Shown here piece by piece: positions 8,939 through 13,656 of a DNA stretch of 50,475 nt. Position numbers and translations under genes: made by a program. The stretch lies in sequence record OR424386.1, one strand, 5' to 3'. Origin of the DNA: Escherichia phage vB-Eco-KMB25. The notes under the pieces were generated by a model. That model saw only the letters and a list, made by a program, of their open reading frames with translations, made no database searches and was not told the origin of the DNA. The stretch's first letter is position 1. Each line of letters opens with the position of its first letter.

Positions 8939-9320
8939 ATTATCTGTTGCGGCAAGAATGGCGCTGGCTCAAGAATACGAAAGTGAATATATGATCGCTT
9001 ATGAAAACGTTGAATTTACGCCACCAGAAGGCGGCGGCATTTGGCTGAAATATGACTACAAAGAAGCAGATACAATAATTCACGATCTGAAAAGGAAATG
9101 CATTAGCTATATTGGAATGGTTCAGATCGGAATTGAATTCCCGCCAGGATCAGGAATTGATAAGGCTCGCAAGCTGGCAAAAAATATTGCTGATTTCTTT
9201 GAAGATGGTAAAATGCTTTCGAATGGCTATATTTCAGAAGGTGCAAAAGTGCATCAAGTTCAGAAATCAGAATCAGGATGGTTTTATCCAGTACGTTTTT
9301 ATGTTCGTTATGATGGTTAA
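8928..9320 (+). CDS. tail-associated protein (putative)
   Basis: Synteny only. Confidence 0.3.
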   Translation: MHYELSVAARMALAQEYESEYMIAYENVEFTPPEGGGIWLKYDYKEADTIIHDLKRKCISYIGMVQIGIEFPPGSGIDKARKLAKNIADFFEDGKMLSNGYISEGAKVHQVQKSESGWFYPVRFYVRYDG

Positions 9321-9334
9321 TAAAGGGGGCTATT

Positions 9335-9997
9335 ATGCACTTACCTAACGGATCACAGATTTTTATTGAAAACACGCGCGGCGTGGCAGTAAGCGCAACC
9401 AACGTAAGCAATGCAACAAAACCGGAATTTACGCTTGAAAGCGGCGGTGATGGATTCCAGAAAGGTGATTATATTATCGTTACCGCCTCAAGTTGGGGTA
9501 AGTTGCTTGATCGCGTTCTGCGTGTGACGGCGGCGGAAGCAACTAAGGTTACTGTTGAAGGTATCGACACAACCGATACTAATGTTTTTCCGTCTGGCGC
9601 TGTAACTGCGAGCTTTGCGAAAATCAACGGTTGGACAGAGATCCCATGCGTACAGGATTTGGGGCAGGACGGCGGCGAGCAGCAGTATTACAATTACCAG
9701 TGTTTGAGCGATGACCAGGAGCAGCAGTTACCAACCTATAAAAGCGCGGTATCACTGACTTACACATTTGCGCATGAATACGATAACCCGATTTATCCGC
9801 TCTTGCGTAAGGCTGACGAATCCGGCGACGTTAAAGCATTGCGCATGTATGTACCAAAAGCAAAAGAAATGCGCCTTTGGGCTGGTGTGCTTTCTTTCAA
9901 CGAGATCCCACAAACGTCGGTAAACGAAATGGAAACCGTTTCTTTGTCGGTATCCCTGAAAGGTCGCTTTACTTTCTTGCCGTCTACTCAGGCTTAA
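9335..9997 (+). CDS. major tail protein (putative)
   Basis: 220 aa directly upstream of the chaperone pair and tape measure; followed by a strong terminator hairpin. Confidence 0.5.
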   Translation: MHLPNGSQIFIENTRGVAVSATNVSNATKPEFTLESGGDGFQKGDYIIVTASSWGKLLDRVLRVTAAEATKVTVEGIDTTDTNVFPSGAVTASFAKINGWTEIPCVQDLGQDGGEQQYYNYQCLSDDQEQQLPTYKSAVSLTYTFAHEYDNPIYPLLRKADESGDVKALRMYVPKAKEMRLWAGVLSFNEIPQTSVNEMETVSLSVSLKGRFTFLPSTQA

Positions 9998-10003
9998 TTT
10001 AAA

Positions 10004-10027
10004 GGGGCGCATTGCGTCCCTTTTTTA
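10004..10027 (+). terminator. rho-independent terminator after the major tail gene
   Basis: GGGGCGC-ATT-GCGTCCC followed by TTTTTT. Confidence 0.6.
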
Positions 10028-10068
10028 TTTGATGTAATATCACCTCAATATTTAACAACTCAGGAGAA

Positions 10069-10389
10069 ATGACAATGGCTAAAATGAAATTGACTCTTGC
10101 CCCGCTTCCAGATTTCAAACTTCCAGTTAAATTTGTATTGCCGGATGGTAACGAGCAGAAAATTGTGTTTACAGTTAAGCATAAAAAGGCCAGCGAGATT
10201 CAAGAGCTTTACCAGAAAGAAGGTATTAAAGATCCTGAATTCATCATGAATGTTGCCGTTGGTTGGGATCTGGAAGAAGAATTCAACGAAGAAAACGCTC
10301 AACTGTTAGTTGATTATTATCCTGGCGCGGCGCTGGCTCTTATGGGATCTTATTTAAGTGCGCTGGCAGGGCAACGCGTAAAAAACTAA
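10069..10389 (+). CDS. tail assembly chaperone (G-like)
   Basis: 106 aa between major tail and tape measure genes; ends with slippery A AAA AAC before the stop. Confidence 0.55.
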   Translation: MTMAKMKLTLAPLPDFKLPVKFVLPDGNEQKIVFTVKHKKASEIQELYQKEGIKDPEFIMNVAVGWDLEEEFNEENAQLLVDYYPGAALALMGSYLSALAGQRVKN

Positions 10390-10706
10390 AACGGGCGGTT
10401 TATCTGTATTATCAGAAACCGCCGACAGATGCAGAATTGCAAGCCGTAGGATTAACACGCGCAGACTATGAAGGAGAAGATCCGCCAGAGGTCATATTTG
10501 ATGAAAGTATGATGCAATCATGGGATATATTTTGCGCGATGGGCACACAGTGGCGTAGTGCTGGCGCTGGTGCTTACGGTTTTGATTATAATGTTTTGCC
10601 TATGTTATTCAGAATCTATAAAATAGACGATGAAGAAATGGCCTTAAATGACTTGCGCATCATGGAACAAAAAGCACTGGAAATGATGCAAGCAAATAAC
10701 AAATAA
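10069..10706 (+). CDS. tail assembly chaperone G-T fusion via programmed -1 frameshift (putative)
   Basis: The -1 frame is open from 10314 to 10706 and overlaps the 3' end of the G-like gene; heptamer AAAAAAC at 10380-10386. Confidence 0.4.
10380..10386 (+). other. candidate -1 ribosomal slippery heptamer A AAA AAC
   Basis: X XXY YYZ pattern in the G-like frame, two codons before its stop, within the frame overlap. Confidence 0.4.
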
Positions 10707-10729
10707 AGCGCCTACGGGCGCTTTTTTTA
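10707..10729 (+). terminator. rho-independent terminator before the tape measure gene
   Basis: GCGCC-TACG-GGCGC followed by TTTTTTT. Confidence 0.55.
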
Positions 10730-10743
10730 TGAGGGTAAAATAT

Positions 10744-13656
10744 ATGGCTGAACAATTTGCAGGTTTAACACTTGGCGTTAACGTCGAGCAGTTAAACAGG
10801 GCTGTAAAGTCATTGCAGGACTTTAAAAAAGCAAACGACGAAGCAAAGAAAGGCGTTGAGAGCTTTGTTAATGAGGAAGAAATTGCAAAGCAAAGAGCAA
10901 AACAATTAGCTGATGAATTGGCGAAACAGAGCCGTGAATTTAAACGCATTCAGGACACTGTTGATCCGACGGCGGCTAAAATGCGCAAGCTATCTCAGGC
11001 CGCAAGTGATCTTGATAAGCTATGGCAAAAGGGCATTGTTCCCGATGAAACGTTTTTCCAGTTGGGGAGTATGCTGGAAACTCAGATCAGCAAGCTGGAG
11101 CGTAATAAAAAGGCGTTAACGGAAGAAGGCCGCGCAGCACTTGAGGAATCAAAAGCCAAAGAGAAAGCAGCGTTAGCAGGAAAAACTTTCCTTGCGGATC
11201 TGGAATCGCAAGCCGCCGCTCTTGGCAAAACAAAAGCCGAATTGCTTGAAATGAAAGCGGCACAACTTGGCGTAAGTGCTCAGGCCGCGCCATTTATTGC
11301 ACAGCTTAAAGCGCAAGAAAAACAGATGAAGTTAACCGGAATTAGCGCGGGGCAATATAACCAGGCCATGCGAATGCTTCCGGCTCAGATCACTGACGTT
11401 GTAACGTCGCTGGCTTCCGGTATGCCTGTTTGGTTGGTTGCAATCCAGCAGGGTGGACAGATTAAGGATTCTTTCGGCGGCGTTGGCAATACGTTTAAAG
11501 CGCTGTTGTCGTTTCTGAATCCGGTAAACGTTGGGCTTGCCGCCTTAGCCGTTTCAATTGGTGCTCTTGTTAAGGCTGGTTATGATGCGTATAAGTCGCA
11601 ACGTGACTTGCAAGAGGCGTTGGTGCTGACTGGTGGCTATGCTGGAACAAGCGGCGCACAGTTCGATAAGCTGGCGCAGGACATTAATAACAGCACTGAT
11701 GCGACGATAGGAAACATCCGATCCATCGCAACAGAGCTTGCAAAATCAGGCAAATTCACGATTGATCAGATTAAATCGATCACAAAGACTACCGCTCAGT
11801 GGTCAACGGTAACGGGTGAATCAAGCGACAAGATAACCGATTACTTTAATAAGATTGCTGGCGATCCGGTTAAAGGTCTTGCAGAGCTAAACGAGCAATT
11901 CAACTTTTTAAGCGAGGGGCAATTAACCTACATTGCAGACCTGGAGAAAACGAAAGGCAAAACGGAAGCAGTAACGGCGGCGACAAAATTATTTGCTGAT
12001 GTTATGGATCAGAGATTAGCTAAACTGGCAGACTCCGCAACGCCATTAGAAAAGATGTGGACGAACATTAAAAAATGGGCTTCAGATGCGTGGGGTTGGG
12101 TTGGGGATCACACGCTGGCGGCGCTTAACCTGATTATTGACGTTGTAGCCGGAACCGTTGAGCAAGTTCGTTATTTACTTAATCAGGGTGATATTCTCAT
12201 TGGTGAATTTATTGTGTCGGCAACAAAAGCGATGCAAAAAATACCAGGACTTGATAATGTTGGCGATTCTGTTATTTCGCAGCAGCAGAAGATTATCAAT
12301 AACGCTAAGGAGAACAACAAGGAGCTATTAAAATCAATTGCCGAACGTAACGAGCGAGTCAAAAAAGGCGAGCAGGGTTACATTGACATGATGAAAAATC
12401 GTGCGGCGGTTGAACAGCAATATGCGACAAAAACAAAAGAGAATATCAGGAAGGAAGCCGAGGAATTAGCCAAGCGCGATAAAAAGCAAAAGGCTGAAAA
12501 AGTTAAGGTATCGGCTGGCGATAAGCTGGAAGAACAATATCAGCGTGATATCCTGGCGTTAGAAACTCAATTAAGAGTTTTGAAAGGGCACAAGACGATC
12601 ACAGATACCATAAGCCAGCAACGTAAATCTTTATGGGCTGAACAAGCTAAAATTCAGATTTTGCAAGAAGCCTCAACAAAACGGCAACTTACTGATGAAG
12701 AAAAAAGCATTTTAGCCAACAAAGATAAGATCCTGGCGATGGCTGAACAAAAAGCTATTTTAGGCGATCAGATTGTTGCGCAAACGCGCCTTAATCAGTT
12801 GCAAGATAGCTCAATCAAGTTTATCCAGCAGCAGAAAGCAGCAACAGAAGCACTAGCAAAAACCAGAGGGTTAAGCGAGCGTGAAGCAGCAAGAGCGGCG
12901 GAACGTGCAAAGGTTGAATCTGATTATCTTGCTAAGGGAGGACAGAAAGAAGATCCGCAACTTAAAGCCATGATGGATTCATTAGACAACCGCTATAAAG
13001 AGGAAGATGCCAAACGTGCTGATTGGTTGGCTGGCGCTAAAAATGCCTTTGCTGAGTATGGCGAGGAAGCAATGAACATGTATGATAATATCGGCAACAT
13101 TGCGAGCCAGGCGCTAAACGGCCTATCGCAACAAATGGCTGATTTTTTAACTACTGGACAAGCAAACTTCAAAGACTTTGCAAAATCTATCATTAGCATG
13201 ATTGTTCAGATGATAACAAAGATGGCTCTTTTTAATGCCATATCAGGCATGTTTGGTTCATTTGGTTTTGGTGGAGCAACTGGAGGATTTCAGGGTGCTA
13301 GTTTTGCTGTTGGCGGTTATACTGGCGACGGTGGAAAATATGATCCGGCTGGCGTTGTTCATAAAGGTGAGTTTGTTTTCACCAAAGAGGCAACGCAAAG
13401 GATCGGAGCCAGAAACCTGTATCGCATGATGCGAGGTTATGCAAACGGAGGTCAAGTAGGAAGCGTGACAACTGGCGGCTCTGGAATCAATCGCGGTGCA
13501 TCGCAATTTGCATTTGGTGATATAAACGTTAACATTGACAACGGTCAAGATCCAAAAGGGATGGAAACTGGTATTAAGATGATTTTCACTGAAATGATTC
13601 AACGGTCATGCTCGCAAGGTGGCGAGGTTTATAATTTTGTTCATGGGAGGGCTTAA
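10744..13656 (+). CDS. tail tape measure protein
   Basis: 970 aa, the longest gene in the tail block; coiled-coil-rich centre and Gly-rich C-terminus; follows the chaperone pair. Confidence 0.85.
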   Translation: MAEQFAGLTLGVNVEQLNRAVKSLQDFKKANDEAKKGVESFVNEEEIAKQRAKQLADELAKQSREFKRIQDTVDPTAAKMRKLSQAASDLDKLWQKGIVPDETFFQLGSMLETQISKLERNKKALTEEGRAALEESKAKEKAALAGKTFLADLESQAAALGKTKAELLEMKAAQLGVSAQAAPFIAQLKAQEKQMKLTGISAGQYNQAMRMLPAQITDVVTSLASGMPVWLVAIQQGGQIKDSFGGVGNTFKALLSFLNPVNVGLAALAVSIGALVKAGYDAYKSQRDLQEALVLTGGYAGTSGAQFDKLAQDINNSTDATIGNIRSIATELAKSGKFTIDQIKSITKTTAQWSTVTGESSDKITDYFNKIAGDPVKGLAELNEQFNFLSEGQLTYIADLEKTKGKTEAVTAATKLFADVMDQRLAKLADSATPLEKMWTNIKKWASDAWGWVGDHTLAALNLIIDVVAGTVEQVRYLLNQGDILIGEFIVSATKAMQKIPGLDNVGDSVISQQQKIINNAKENNKELLKSIAERNERVKKGEQGYIDMMKNRAAVEQQYATKTKENIRKEAEELAKRDKKQKAEKVKVSAGDKLEEQYQRDILALETQLRVLKGHKTITDTISQQRKSLWAEQAKIQILQEASTKRQLTDEEKSILANKDKILAMAEQKAILGDQIVAQTRLNQLQDSSIKFIQQQKAATEALAKTRGLSEREAARAAERAKVESDYLAKGGQKEDPQLKAMMDSLDNRYKEEDAKRADWLAGAKNAFAEYGEEAMNMYDNIGNIASQALNGLSQQMADFLTTGQANFKDFAKSIISMIVQMITKMALFNAISGMFGSFGFGGATGGFQGASFAVGGYTGDGGKYDPAGVVHKGEFVFTKEATQRIGARNLYRMMRGYANGGQVGSVTTGGSGINRGASQFAFGDINVNIDNGQDPKGMETGIKMIFTEMIQRSCSQGGEVYNFVHGRA

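What the first reader, a model, noticed from the sequence alone, without database searches (positions are those of the whole stretch)
10314..10706. Programmed -1 frameshift candidate in the tail assembly chaperone pair (G/GT type)
The second chaperone ORF has no convincing own start (the track start is TTG), and its frame is open from 10314, overlapping the last 75 nt of the G-like gene in the -1 frame. The heptamer A AAA AAC at 10380-10386 sits two codons before the G-like stop. A conserved -1 frameshift producing a G-T fusion is established for lambda-like and many other siphovirus chaperones located exactly between the major tail and tape measure genes.
Basis: partly seen in the sequence, partly recalled or inferred. 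Interest (0 to 1): 0.45.

Follow-up and report, generated by a model that had tools for sequence, protein, structure and literature searches.

The report
Known tail-chaperone frameshift in T1-like phage
This is the standard programmed -1 ribosomal frameshift that lets a T1/Tls-like phage make a short and a long tail-assembly chaperone from one gene pair; it is real, strongly conserved, and already annotated in close relatives, so it is ordinary.

Summary
The chaperone gene (10075/10069..10389, Pfam Phage_TAC_4) ends ...GTA AAA AAC TAA. The heptamer A_AAA_AAC (10380-10386) is in the correct X_XXY_YYZ phase and abuts the stop. The -1 frame is open 10314..10706, has no ATG/GTG/TTG before TTG 10437, and encodes a DUF1799 domain.

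Among 129 distinct homologous junctions, 124 put the DUF1799 ORF in the -1 frame. 108 of those carry A_AAA_AAC or G_GGA_AAC at, or one codon before, the stop. In three lineages the -1 frame opens only 10 nt before the end of the stop. Third-codon-position variability switches from the 0 frame to the -1 frame at the heptamer.

The window is a Tlsvirus (Drexlerviridae), 96-98% identical to Tls, LL5, Sazh and Stevie. Those GenBank records, and T1's, already annotate the joined frameshift product, and the Stevie genome paper states it.

What I add:
- A hairpin at 10394-10423, 7 nt after the heptamer. It is lineage-specific and has no covariation support, so its role is unproven.
- The predicted junction is ...RVKN-LKRAVY..., not ...RVKK-L...
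- The proteins are not sequence relatives of lambda gpG/gpT, only positional and functional analogues.

Verdict: interpretation supported, already known, low interest.

The parts
9335..9997 (+). Major tail (tube) protein gene, upstream neighbour of the chaperone pair
   Evidence: Pfam Phage_tail_3 E 6e-67; PHROG 584 major tail protein
10001..10033 (+). Terminator-like hairpin plus T-run between the major tail gene and the chaperone gene
   Evidence: Scan hit with 10 pairs; annotated as a terminator in Stevie and Sazh
10062..10066 (+). Shine-Dalgarno AGGAG serving ATG 10075
   Evidence: Read from the sequence; RBS annotated at the equivalent place in Stevie, Sazh and T1
10075..10389 (+). Short tail assembly (tape measure) chaperone, the G analogue (tfmA); 104 aa, or 106 aa if started at ATG 10069
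   Evidence: Pfam Phage_TAC_4 E 2e-37; annotated as tape measure chaperone in Tls, Stevie, Sazh, LL5 and T1
10314..10379 (+). Part of the -1 frame that is open but probably not translated. It overlaps the G 3' end and has no start codon
   Evidence: In this stretch variability follows the 0 frame only. The length of this overlap ranges from 10 to more than 1000 nt among relatives
10380..10386 (+). Slippery heptamer A_AAA_AAC, the -1 shift site
   Evidence: In X_XXY_YYZ phase. A_AAA_AAC or G_GGA_AAC lies at or one codon before the stop in 108 of 124 distinct -1 junctions. The -1 frame opens only 10 nt before the end of the stop in L046, L071 and L072
10387..10389 (+). G stop codon TAA directly abutting the heptamer. 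In the -1 frame its first two bases form the Leu codon CTA (10386-10388)
   Evidence: Stop directly follows the heptamer position in 117 of 124 junctions. Leu is invariant as the first T residue
10394..10423 (+). Candidate stimulatory hairpin: GGCGGUU/AACCGCC outer stem plus UCUG/CAGA inner stem, 7-nt spacer after the heptamer
   Evidence: MFE -16 to -19 kcal/mol, z about -2.9 to -3.0. Present in Tempevirinae and Tunavirinae. Absent in Braunvirinae, Rogunavirinae, L033 and L144. No covariation beyond the slid control
10386..10706 (+). T-like extension read in the -1 frame after the slip (106 codons, LKRAVYLYYQKPPTD...NNK, then TAA). Full product = join(10075..10386, 10386..10706), 210 aa
   Evidence: DUF1799 E 2e-12, covering about 10449-10688. 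PHROG 17368 (213 positions) matches G to positions 1-107 and the -1 ORF to positions 102-213. -1 frame codon periodicity starts right after the heptamer
10705..10734 (+). Terminator-like hairpin plus T-run after the T-like ORF
   Evidence: Scan hit; annotated as a terminator in Stevie, Sazh and T1
10744..13656 (+). Tape measure protein gene (ORF lister starts it at 10729; relatives annotate the ATG at 10744)
   Evidence: Pfam TMP_2 E 9e-68 and Tape_meas_lam_C E 1e-22; PHROG 24

Best explanation
Ribosomes start at ATG 10075 and translate the tail assembly (tape measure) chaperone. Most terminate at TAA 10387 and give the 104-aa short chaperone. A small fraction slip back one nucleotide on A_AAA_AAC (10380-10386). 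Either tRNA-Lys and tRNA-Asn re-pair together to AAA AAA, or peptidyl-tRNA-Asn slips alone while the stop codon sits in the A site. Those ribosomes then read CTA AAA CGG... in the -1 frame through to TAA 10704. The result is a 210-aa fusion of the chaperone domain and a C-terminal DUF1799 domain, with junction ...GQRVKN-LKRAVYLYYQKPPTD....

By analogy with lambda gpG/gpGT, the short form would coat the tape measure protein, and the rare long form would use its extra domain to recruit the major tail protein. The fixed low slip rate would set the ratio of the two. The frame switch is supported by the sequence comparisons here. The protein roles, the ratio and the efficiency are inferred from lambda.

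The hairpin at 10394-10423, 7 nt downstream, may raise the slip rate modestly. I put that at about 35%.
For: - Anatomy: correct heptamer phase, open -1 frame, and no start codon before 10437.
- Identity of the parts: Phage_TAC_4 plus DUF1799, between Phage_tail_3 and the TMP domains. One PHROG profile (17368, 213 positions) matches both halves in order.
- Uniqueness: it is the only in-phase heptamer in the window with a long -1 extension.
- Conservation: 124 of 129 distinct junctions have T in the -1 frame. The heptamers abutting the stop are AAAAAAC (81) and GGGAAAC (20), with 7 more sitting one codon earlier. G identity in this set falls to about 25-30%.
- The minimal overlap of 10 nt pins the shift to the heptamer.
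- Column entropy by codon position is 0.80/0.54/1.69 in the 0 frame before the heptamer and 0.55/0.50/1.29 in the -1 frame after it.
- 129 of 150 distinct T ORFs have no start-type codon upstream of the site. The first downstream start-type codon wanders from 4 to 73 codons.
- GGGAAAC replaces AAAAAAC at the same position. It has no long homopolymer run, which argues for ribosomal rather than transcriptional slippage.
- Curated records of T1, Tls, Stevie, Sazh, LL5 and Sparks carry the joined CDS, and the Stevie paper states the conserved frameshift (PMC4319613).
Against: - There is no direct protein or reporter evidence for this phage, and I found none for any T1-like phage in the searchable literature.
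- In E. coli A_AAA_AAC is reported as much less shift-prone than A_AAA_AAG (PMC5009743), so efficiency may be very low.
- The hairpin is not conserved across the family. L033 and L144 keep the same amino acids but have synonymous codons that destroy it. Covariation is no better than a control slid by one column (0.146 versus 0.166).
- Four relatives' records show A5 instead of A6, which changes the frame relation. These are most likely homopolymer sequencing errors, but that was not proven.
Confidence: 0.9

Rival explanations
1. The two ORFs are independent genes. The DUF1799 protein starts on its own at TTG 10437 or ATG 10509, as many GenBank records annotate, and no fusion is made.
For: Many records annotate a separate small ORF: Jahat, K50_evo30, pSf-1, JLBYU09, TR1, Sadiya, phi2457T and 50EP. 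The Tls record also lists an internal ORF starting at the equivalent of 10509.
Against: - No SD precedes 10437 or 10509. AAGGAG at 10471-10476 lies 33 nt before 10509.
- TTG 10437 is absent in 97%-identical Sazh, and the first possible start ranges from 4 to 73 codons after the junction.
- The 16 codons between the heptamer and 10437 are conserved as protein (LKRAVYL.YQKPPTD) with -1-frame third-position variability, although nothing can initiate there.
- The Pfam DUF1799 match begins about 10449, upstream of ATG 10509.
Confidence: 0.04
2. The long product arises by transcriptional slippage. RNA polymerase adds one A in the A6 run, so a subset of mRNAs carries G and T in one frame.
For: The site contains a homopolymer run of six A. 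A-run length differs (A5) in four database records of relatives, showing that the run is error-prone for some polymerase or sequencing chemistry.
Against: - Six A is shorter than the runs of about 8-9 or more generally linked with productive slippage in bacteria (own knowledge, not tested here).
- Twenty distinct homologous junctions carry G_GGA_AAC at the same position abutting the stop, and seven more junctions carry one of the two canonical heptamers one codon upstream. G_GGA_AAC has only runs of three, yet is a classical tandem-slippage heptamer.
- The strict 0-frame phase of the heptamer is conserved. Only a ribosomal mechanism requires that.
Confidence: 0.04
3. The -1 slip occurs as proposed, and the hairpin at 10394-10423 together with the abutting stop codon is a required stimulator, a dnaX/IS-like bipartite signal rather than a bare slippery site as in lambda.
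For: - The hairpin lies 6-7 nt after the heptamer, with z about -3 to -4.6, in Tlsvirus, Warwickvirus, Hanrivervirus and Tunavirus including T1.
- Other hairpins start 5-7 nt downstream in Nouzillyvirus, Webervirus and Dhillonvirus.
- In the hairpin-bearing clade the Arg codon is CGG or AGG in 24 of 26 sequences. The stem third positions have low entropy (0.24-0.62) against 1.69 at the neighbouring four-fold Pro site.
- The stop codon abuts the heptamer position in 117 of 124 junctions.
Against: - No compensatory changes: the covariation score is 0.146, against 0.166 for partners slid by -1.
- There is no comparable structure in Braunvirinae, Rogunavirinae or most prophage homologues, where z is near 0.
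- L033 and L144 encode the same peptide with the stem abolished.
- GCG, CTG and CCG are also preferred E. coli codons (own knowledge), so the low third-position entropy may be codon bias.
Confidence: 0.3

Closest known systems
Tape measure chaperone pair tfmA/tfmS of phage Tls and its homologues in T1, Stevie, Sazh and LL5 (Drexlerviridae)
   Same: 96-98% nucleotide identity over 9300-10800. Identical heptamer, stop and hairpin. The same flanking terminators and RBS are annotated. The GenBank records carry a two-piece joined CDS labelled as the frameshift product. [quoted passage not shown]
   Different: Only a few synonymous or conservative substitutions. Nothing differs in the recoding signal.
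Bacteriophage lambda gpG/gpGT programmed -1 frameshift (Levin, Hendrix & Casjens 1993; Xu, Hendrix & Duda 2004, 2013, 2014, as cited in PMC5009743)
   Same: Same genomic position between the major tail and tape measure genes. Same logic of a short chaperone plus a rare -1 extended form. [quoted passage not shown]
   Different: - Different protein families: lambda G is Phage_TAC_2 and T is Phage_tail_T, whereas this locus is Phage_TAC_4 and DUF1799. Profile comparison finds no relationship (probability 0.06% and 1.2%).
- Lambda uses G_GGA_AAG, with 15 nt between the heptamer and the stop. Here A_AAA_AAC abuts the stop.
- Lambda's frameshift is experimentally proven. This one is inferred.
IS1 insA-insB' -1 frameshift on A_AAA_AAC, and the dnaX A_AAA_AAG frameshift of E. 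coli
   Same: The same or near-identical A-rich heptamer decoded by E. coli-type tRNA-Lys. dnaX combines the slip site with a downstream hairpin. The IS1 details are from my own knowledge; dnaX and the relative shiftiness of the heptamers are from PMC5009743.
   Different: Unrelated genes and purpose. dnaX also uses an upstream SD-like stimulator; none is conserved here, since the Gly codon in the candidate AGGG varies freely. The role of the hairpin here is untested.

Membership tests
G/GT-type tail assembly chaperone with conserved programmed frameshift (class defined by Xu, Hendrix & Duda 2004) | Two ORFs located between the major tail protein gene and the tape measure protein gene | tested here: met
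   Order is Phage_tail_3 (9335..9997), Phage_TAC_4 (10075..10389), DUF1799 (-1 frame to 10706), TMP_2/Tape_meas_lam_C (10744..13656)
G/GT-type tail assembly chaperone with conserved programmed frameshift (class defined by Xu, Hendrix & Duda 2004) | The second ORF overlaps the 3' end of the first in another frame and lacks its own credible initiation signal | tested here: met
   -1 frame open from 10314, first start-type codon is TTG 10437, no SD. 129 of 150 distinct homologous T ORFs have no start-type codon upstream of the site, and the position of the first downstream one is not conserved
G/GT-type tail assembly chaperone with conserved programmed frameshift (class defined by Xu, Hendrix & Duda 2004) | A slippery sequence in the overlap, in the phase that allows re-pairing in the new frame | tested here: met
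   A_AAA_AAC at 10380-10386 in X_XXY_YYZ phase. It is the only such site in G, and the only one in the window with a long -1 extension
G/GT-type tail assembly chaperone with conserved programmed frameshift (class defined by Xu, Hendrix & Duda 2004) | The arrangement is conserved among relatives despite protein divergence | tested here: met
   124 of 129 distinct junctions are -1. 108 of 124 carry A_AAA_AAC or G_GGA_AAC at or one codon before the stop. Codon periodicity switches frame at the heptamer
G/GT-type tail assembly chaperone with conserved programmed frameshift (class defined by Xu, Hendrix & Duda 2004) | A fusion protein is actually made at a low fixed ratio and is needed for tail assembly | not testable with these tools
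   Needs mass spectrometry or western blot, a reporter assay and genetics. I found no such data for T1-like phages in the paper searches
Lambda gpG (Pfam Phage_TAC_2, PF06894) and gpT (Phage_tail_T, PF06223) sequence families | Significant match to the family profile or to the lambda proteins | tested here: not met
   The window proteins hit only Phage_TAC_4 and DUF1799, while the lambda proteins hit Phage_TAC_2 and Phage_tail_T. hhalign of the family alignments against lambda G and T gives probability 0.06% and 1.2%. A shared fold could not be tested because the single-sequence model was poor (pLDDT 48.8)
Pfam Phage_TAC_4 (PF08748) plus DUF1799 (PF08809) pair | Scores above the curated gathering thresholds | tested here: met
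   128.4 bits against a cut-off of 21.1, and 47.5 bits against a cut-off of 26
Drexlerviridae (Tlsvirus) tfmA/tfmS tape measure chaperone locus | Near-identical DNA and the same annotated joined CDS in curated relatives | tested here: met
   95.5-97.7% identity to PHB07, LL5, Sazh, Tls and Stevie over 1.5 kb. Joined CDS in Tls, Stevie, Sazh, LL5 and T1
Transcriptional (RNA polymerase) slippage recoding sites | A long homopolymeric A/T run (about 8-9 or more; threshold from own knowledge), with the run itself, not the codon phase, being what is conserved | tested here: not met
   The run is A6. Twenty distinct homologues carry GGGAAAC at this position, and the 0-frame phase is conserved
dnaX/IS-type stimulated -1 frameshift signals | A downstream structure 5-9 nt from the slip site, supported by conservation or covariation | tested here: inconclusive
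   The hairpin is present with a 6-7 nt spacer and z about -3 in several subfamilies. It is absent in others, and covariation is no better than the slid control
dnaX/IS-type stimulated -1 frameshift signals | A conserved upstream SD-like element about 10-14 nt 5' of the slip site | tested here: not met
   The only candidate is AGGG at 10368-10371. The Gly codon it lies in varies freely (GGG, GGT, GGC, GGA) among relatives

The most novel reading that the evidence does not exclude
In the Phage_TAC_4/DUF1799 family the recoding signal may be more than a bare heptamer. The near-universal stop codon directly abutting A_AAA_AAC or G_GGA_AAC, together with lineage-specific hairpins 5-7 nt downstream, could form a tunable stimulatory context that sets the short:long chaperone ratio. 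Some subfamilies (Rogunavirinae with A_AAG_GTC, Webervirus with A_AAA_GTT/GTC/GCC) appear to have swapped the tandem heptamer for a single tRNA-Lys slip site. That would make the family a natural series for studying how frameshift efficiency is tuned.
Probability: 0.25. Interest if true: 0.3.

Novelty: already known. Interest (0 to 1): 0.1.

Why it matters
For this window it matters mainly for correct annotation. The gene pair should be written as a short chaperone (10075..10389) plus a joined frameshift product, join(10075..10386,10386..10706), not as a separate TTG- or ATG-started small ORF.

Many public records of relatives get this wrong. Some omit the second ORF. RefSeq records of relatives and PHROGs label both chaperones 'tail length tape measure protein'.

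Biologically it is one more instance of the conserved tail-chaperone frameshift. It does not open a new question. The family-wide table of slip-site variants and the patchy downstream hairpin could be of modest use to people who study frameshift efficiency.

Tried and rejected
- Structure route. AlphaFold2 on the G protein alone gave mean pLDDT 48.8 and pTM 0.31. That is too poor for a fold search, so none was run. A deeper alignment could not be supplied, because the search for homologous proteins returned only two T-only hits (P0001, P0002) and sequences taken from loci are not accepted by the predictor.
- Solved structures. A profile search of the GT alignment against PDB sequences found nothing at E up to 1.
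- NCBIfam had no family for the fusion protein.
- Profile comparison with lambda G and T showed no relationship.
- Covariation test of the hairpin on 52 distinct Drexlerviridae sequences. 70% of cells paired, but the covariation score (0.146) was no better than with partners slid by -1 (0.166). I therefore do not claim a conserved RNA structure.
- Upstream SD-like stimulator. Rejected, because the Gly codon holding the AGGG varies freely among relatives.
- Paper searches for TfmS/TfmA returned only unrelated hits. The search for DUF1799 returned one paper that lists the ORF as a separate protein and does not mention a frameshift. The LAPAZ paper's 'frameshift' refers to a host mutation.
- Independent initiation at TTG 10437 or ATG 10509 was considered and rejected (see rival explanations).

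Full report
**1. Observation**

The sequence at 10360-10440 reads ...GGG CAA CGC GTA AAA AAC TAA AAC GGG CGG....

- The upstream ORF (ATG 10069 or 10075 to TAA 10387-10389) is in frame pos%3=1.
- The frame pos%3=0, which is -1 relative to it, has a TGA at 10311-10313. It then stays open from 10314 to TAA 10704-10706.
- That frame has no ATG, GTG or TTG until TTG 10437.
- AAAAAAC sits at 10380-10386 and reads A AAA AAC in the upstream frame. This is the X_XXY_YYZ phase needed for tandem -1 re-pairing. Its two codons are the last sense codons before the stop.

It is the only in-phase heptamer in the gene. Over all ORFs of at least 80 aa on both strands of the window (18,101 codons) there are 68 in-phase heptamers. 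Only this one is followed by a -1 frame open for at least 50 codons past the 0-frame stop; here the extension is 105 codons.

**2. What the genes are**

- The upstream protein matches Pfam Phage_TAC_4, 'phage tail assembly chaperone' (E 2e-37).
- The -1 ORF matches DUF1799 (E 2e-12), with the match starting at about 10449.
- The gene before the pair is a Phage_tail_3 tube protein.
- The gene after the pair is a tape measure protein (TMP_2, Tape_meas_lam_C).
- One PHROG profile of 213 positions (17368) matches the first ORF to positions 1-107 and the -1 ORF to positions 102-213. That profile was evidently built from fused products.
- Terminator-like hairpins flank the pair at 10001-10033 and 10705-10734.
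- AGGAG at 10062-10066 is 8 nt from ATG 10075 and 2 nt from ATG 10069. Homologues begin MAKMKL or MAKFKL. So 10075 is the likelier start.

**3. Identity of the window**

The region 9300-10800 is 95.5-97.7% identical to Salmonella phage PHB07, Escherichia phages LL5 and Tls, and Citrobacter phages Sazh and Stevie. All are Tlsvirus, Drexlerviridae.

The GenBank records of Tls (tfmA/tfmS), Stevie, Sazh and LL5 carry a two-piece joined CDS across this junction, and Sazh and LL5 label it a frameshift product. T1 does the same ('tape measure chaperone, frameshift product'), as does the more distant Klebsiella phage Sparks. [quoted passage not shown] The feature is thus already known for this phage group.

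**4. Comparative test**

I gathered 196 related loci: IMG/VR contigs, bacterial genomes and prophages, and GenBank phages. In each I located the G-like and DUF1799 parts by tblastn.

- Of 129 distinct junction contexts, 124 have the DUF1799 ORF in the -1 frame.
- Among those 124, the seven bases before the G stop are AAAAAAC in 81 and GGGAAAC in 20.
- In 7 more, AAAAAAC or GGGAAAC lies one codon (TCC) before the stop.
- The remainder are A_AAG_GTC (5, Rogunavirinae), A_AAA_GTT/GTC/GCC (8, Webervirus), A_AAG_GGT (1), A_AAG_CCC (1) and G_AAA_ATC (1).

This holds down to about 25-30% G identity, in prophages of Pseudomonas, Massilia, Variovorax, Ralstonia and Yersinia.

The length of the open -1 frame upstream of the site ranges from 10 to more than 1000 nt. 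In slur05 (L046), L071 and L072 a -1-frame TGA lies immediately before the heptamer, so the shift can only happen on those seven bases.

**5. Coding signature**

I used 71 distinct Drexlerviridae sequences that need no gaps here.

| Region | Frame | Mean column entropy, codon positions 1/2/3 |
|---|---|---|
| 57 nt before the heptamer | 0 frame | 0.80 / 0.54 / 1.69 |
| 48 nt after the first -1 codon | -1 frame | 0.55 / 0.50 / 1.29 |

In each region the other two frames put the variable position in the wrong place. Purifying selection on protein sequence therefore changes frame exactly at the heptamer.

The peptide right after the junction (LKRAVYL.YQKPPTD) is conserved, and Leu is invariant as its first residue. 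Yet nothing can initiate there. 129 of 150 distinct T ORFs have no start-type codon in the -1 frame upstream of the site. The first one downstream lies anywhere from 4 to 73 codons away. TTG 10437 is missing in 97%-identical Sazh. This rules out independent initiation as the normal route.

**6. Mechanism**

The best explanation is ribosomal -1 slippage on A_AAA_AAC. Either both tRNAs slip together, or peptidyl-tRNA-Asn slips alone while the abutting stop occupies the A site. Both give ...RVKN-LKRAVY.... The two junction peptides can be told apart by mass spectrometry.

Transcriptional slippage is unlikely. The run is only six A. The homologous position is often G_GGA_AAC, which has no long run. 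And the 0-frame phase is conserved.

According to the review PMC5009743:
- In E. coli A_AAA_AAC is less shift-prone than A_AAA_AAG.
- Lambda needs a G:GT ratio of about 30:1.

A weak site fits a requirement for a rare long form. The protein roles are inferred from lambda, not shown here: the short form would coat the tape measure protein, and the long form would recruit the tube protein.

**7. Downstream structure**

RNAfold predicts a hairpin at 10394-10423, 7 nt after the heptamer. It has a GGCGGUU/AACCGCC outer stem and a UCUG/CAGA inner stem. For 10387-10450 the MFE is -18.9 kcal/mol with z = -2.9.

- The same hairpin (spacer 6-7 nt, z -3 to -4.6) occurs in Tlsvirus, Warwickvirus, Hanrivervirus and Tunavirus including T1.
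- Different hairpins at a similar distance occur in Nouzillyvirus, Webervirus and Dhillonvirus.
- Braunvirinae, Rogunavirinae and most prophage homologues show nothing beyond shuffled controls.
- L033 and L144 encode the same peptide with synonymous codons that abolish the stem.

A pair count on 52 distinct sequences gives 70% paired cells, but a covariation score of 0.146 against 0.166 for partners slid by one column.

Within the hairpin-bearing clade the Arg codon is CGG or AGG in 24 of 26 sequences. Third positions in the stem core vary little (entropy 0.24-0.62, against 1.69 at the adjacent four-fold Pro site). This is suggestive, but it is confounded by codon preference. I rate a real stimulatory role at about one in three. 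No conserved upstream SD-like element exists.

**8. Comparison with lambda**

In lambda, G is Phage_TAC_2 and T is Phage_tail_T. Its heptamer is G_GGA_AAG, with 15 nt between the heptamer and the stop. Profile comparison of this family's G and T alignments with the lambda proteins finds nothing (probability 0.06% and 1.2%).

So the locus works like lambda G/GT and occupies the same position, but it is not a member of the lambda protein families. A shared fold could not be tested. The single-sequence AlphaFold model was poor (pLDDT 48.8), no deep alignment was admissible, and no PDB sequence relative exists.

**9. Verdict**

- The feature is already known and annotated in T1, Tls and close relatives.
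- The remaining uncertainty is experimental: no protein-level evidence was found for any T1-like phage.
- Interest is low.

Noticed in passing
L005, L014 (Salmonella phage 36, KR296690), L023, L035; equivalent to window 10380-10385: Four IMG/VR records of relatives have GTAAAAACTAA, with A5 instead of A6, at the shift site. This puts the DUF1799 ORF in the +1 or 0 frame relative to G. L005 has a second 1-nt deletion just upstream. They are most likely homopolymer sequencing errors, but real run-length variants were not excluded.
   Followed up: partly
L042, L175-L179 (Rogunavirinae); L045, L183-L190, L195 (Webervirus); L036 (Jahat); L052: Some subfamilies lack the canonical tandem heptamer at the homologous position. 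They carry A_AAG_GTC, A_AAA_GTT/GTC/GCC, A_AAG_GGT or A_AAG_CCC instead. Only the A_AAA/G part (tRNA-Lys slip) is invariant: columns 1-3 are invariant across 52 distinct Drexlerviridae sequences. Sparks, with A_AAA_GTT, is nevertheless annotated with a frameshift product.
   Followed up: partly
window 10001-10033 and 10705-10734: Terminator-like hairpins with T-runs bracket the chaperone pair on the + strand: one after the major tail gene and one before the tape measure gene. They are annotated as terminators in Stevie, Sazh and T1. Partial termination here may set the relative transcript levels of the tube, chaperone and tape measure genes.
   Followed up: no
window 10069 versus 10075, and 10729 versus 10744: The mechanical ORF starts are probably each a few codons too early. 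AGGAG at 10062-10066 fits ATG 10075 for the chaperone. Relatives annotate the tape measure start at the equivalent of ATG 10744 rather than 10729.
   Followed up: partly
Relatives' public records; PHROGs 17368, 569, 680: Annotation of this pair is inconsistent. Many records call a separate small ORF with an arbitrary start, and some omit the second ORF altogether (tiwna, slur05, HK639). PHROGs and RefSeq records of relatives label both chaperones 'tail length tape measure protein', which is a misnomer.
   Followed up: no
OR786094 'Streptococcus phage MBBL140'; MG065679 'Campylobacter phage A13a' (21 Campylobacter-named records); L050 Nitratidesulfovibrio, L051 Peptococcaceae MAG, L052 Fibrobacter MAG: Records named for hosts far from Enterobacteriaceae carry this T1-like locus at 57-99% identity. 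This suggests contamination, mislabelled hosts or mis-binned phage contigs rather than real host range.
   Followed up: no
L073 (Candidatus Nitrotoga sp. M5 prophage), just after its G stop: This distant homologue has the non-canonical G_AAA_ATC before a TAG stop. It is followed after 2 nt by a very strong 16-bp hairpin (-32.4 kcal/mol, z -6.1). That is a different-looking recoding context that may rely on structure more than on the slip site.
   Followed up: no
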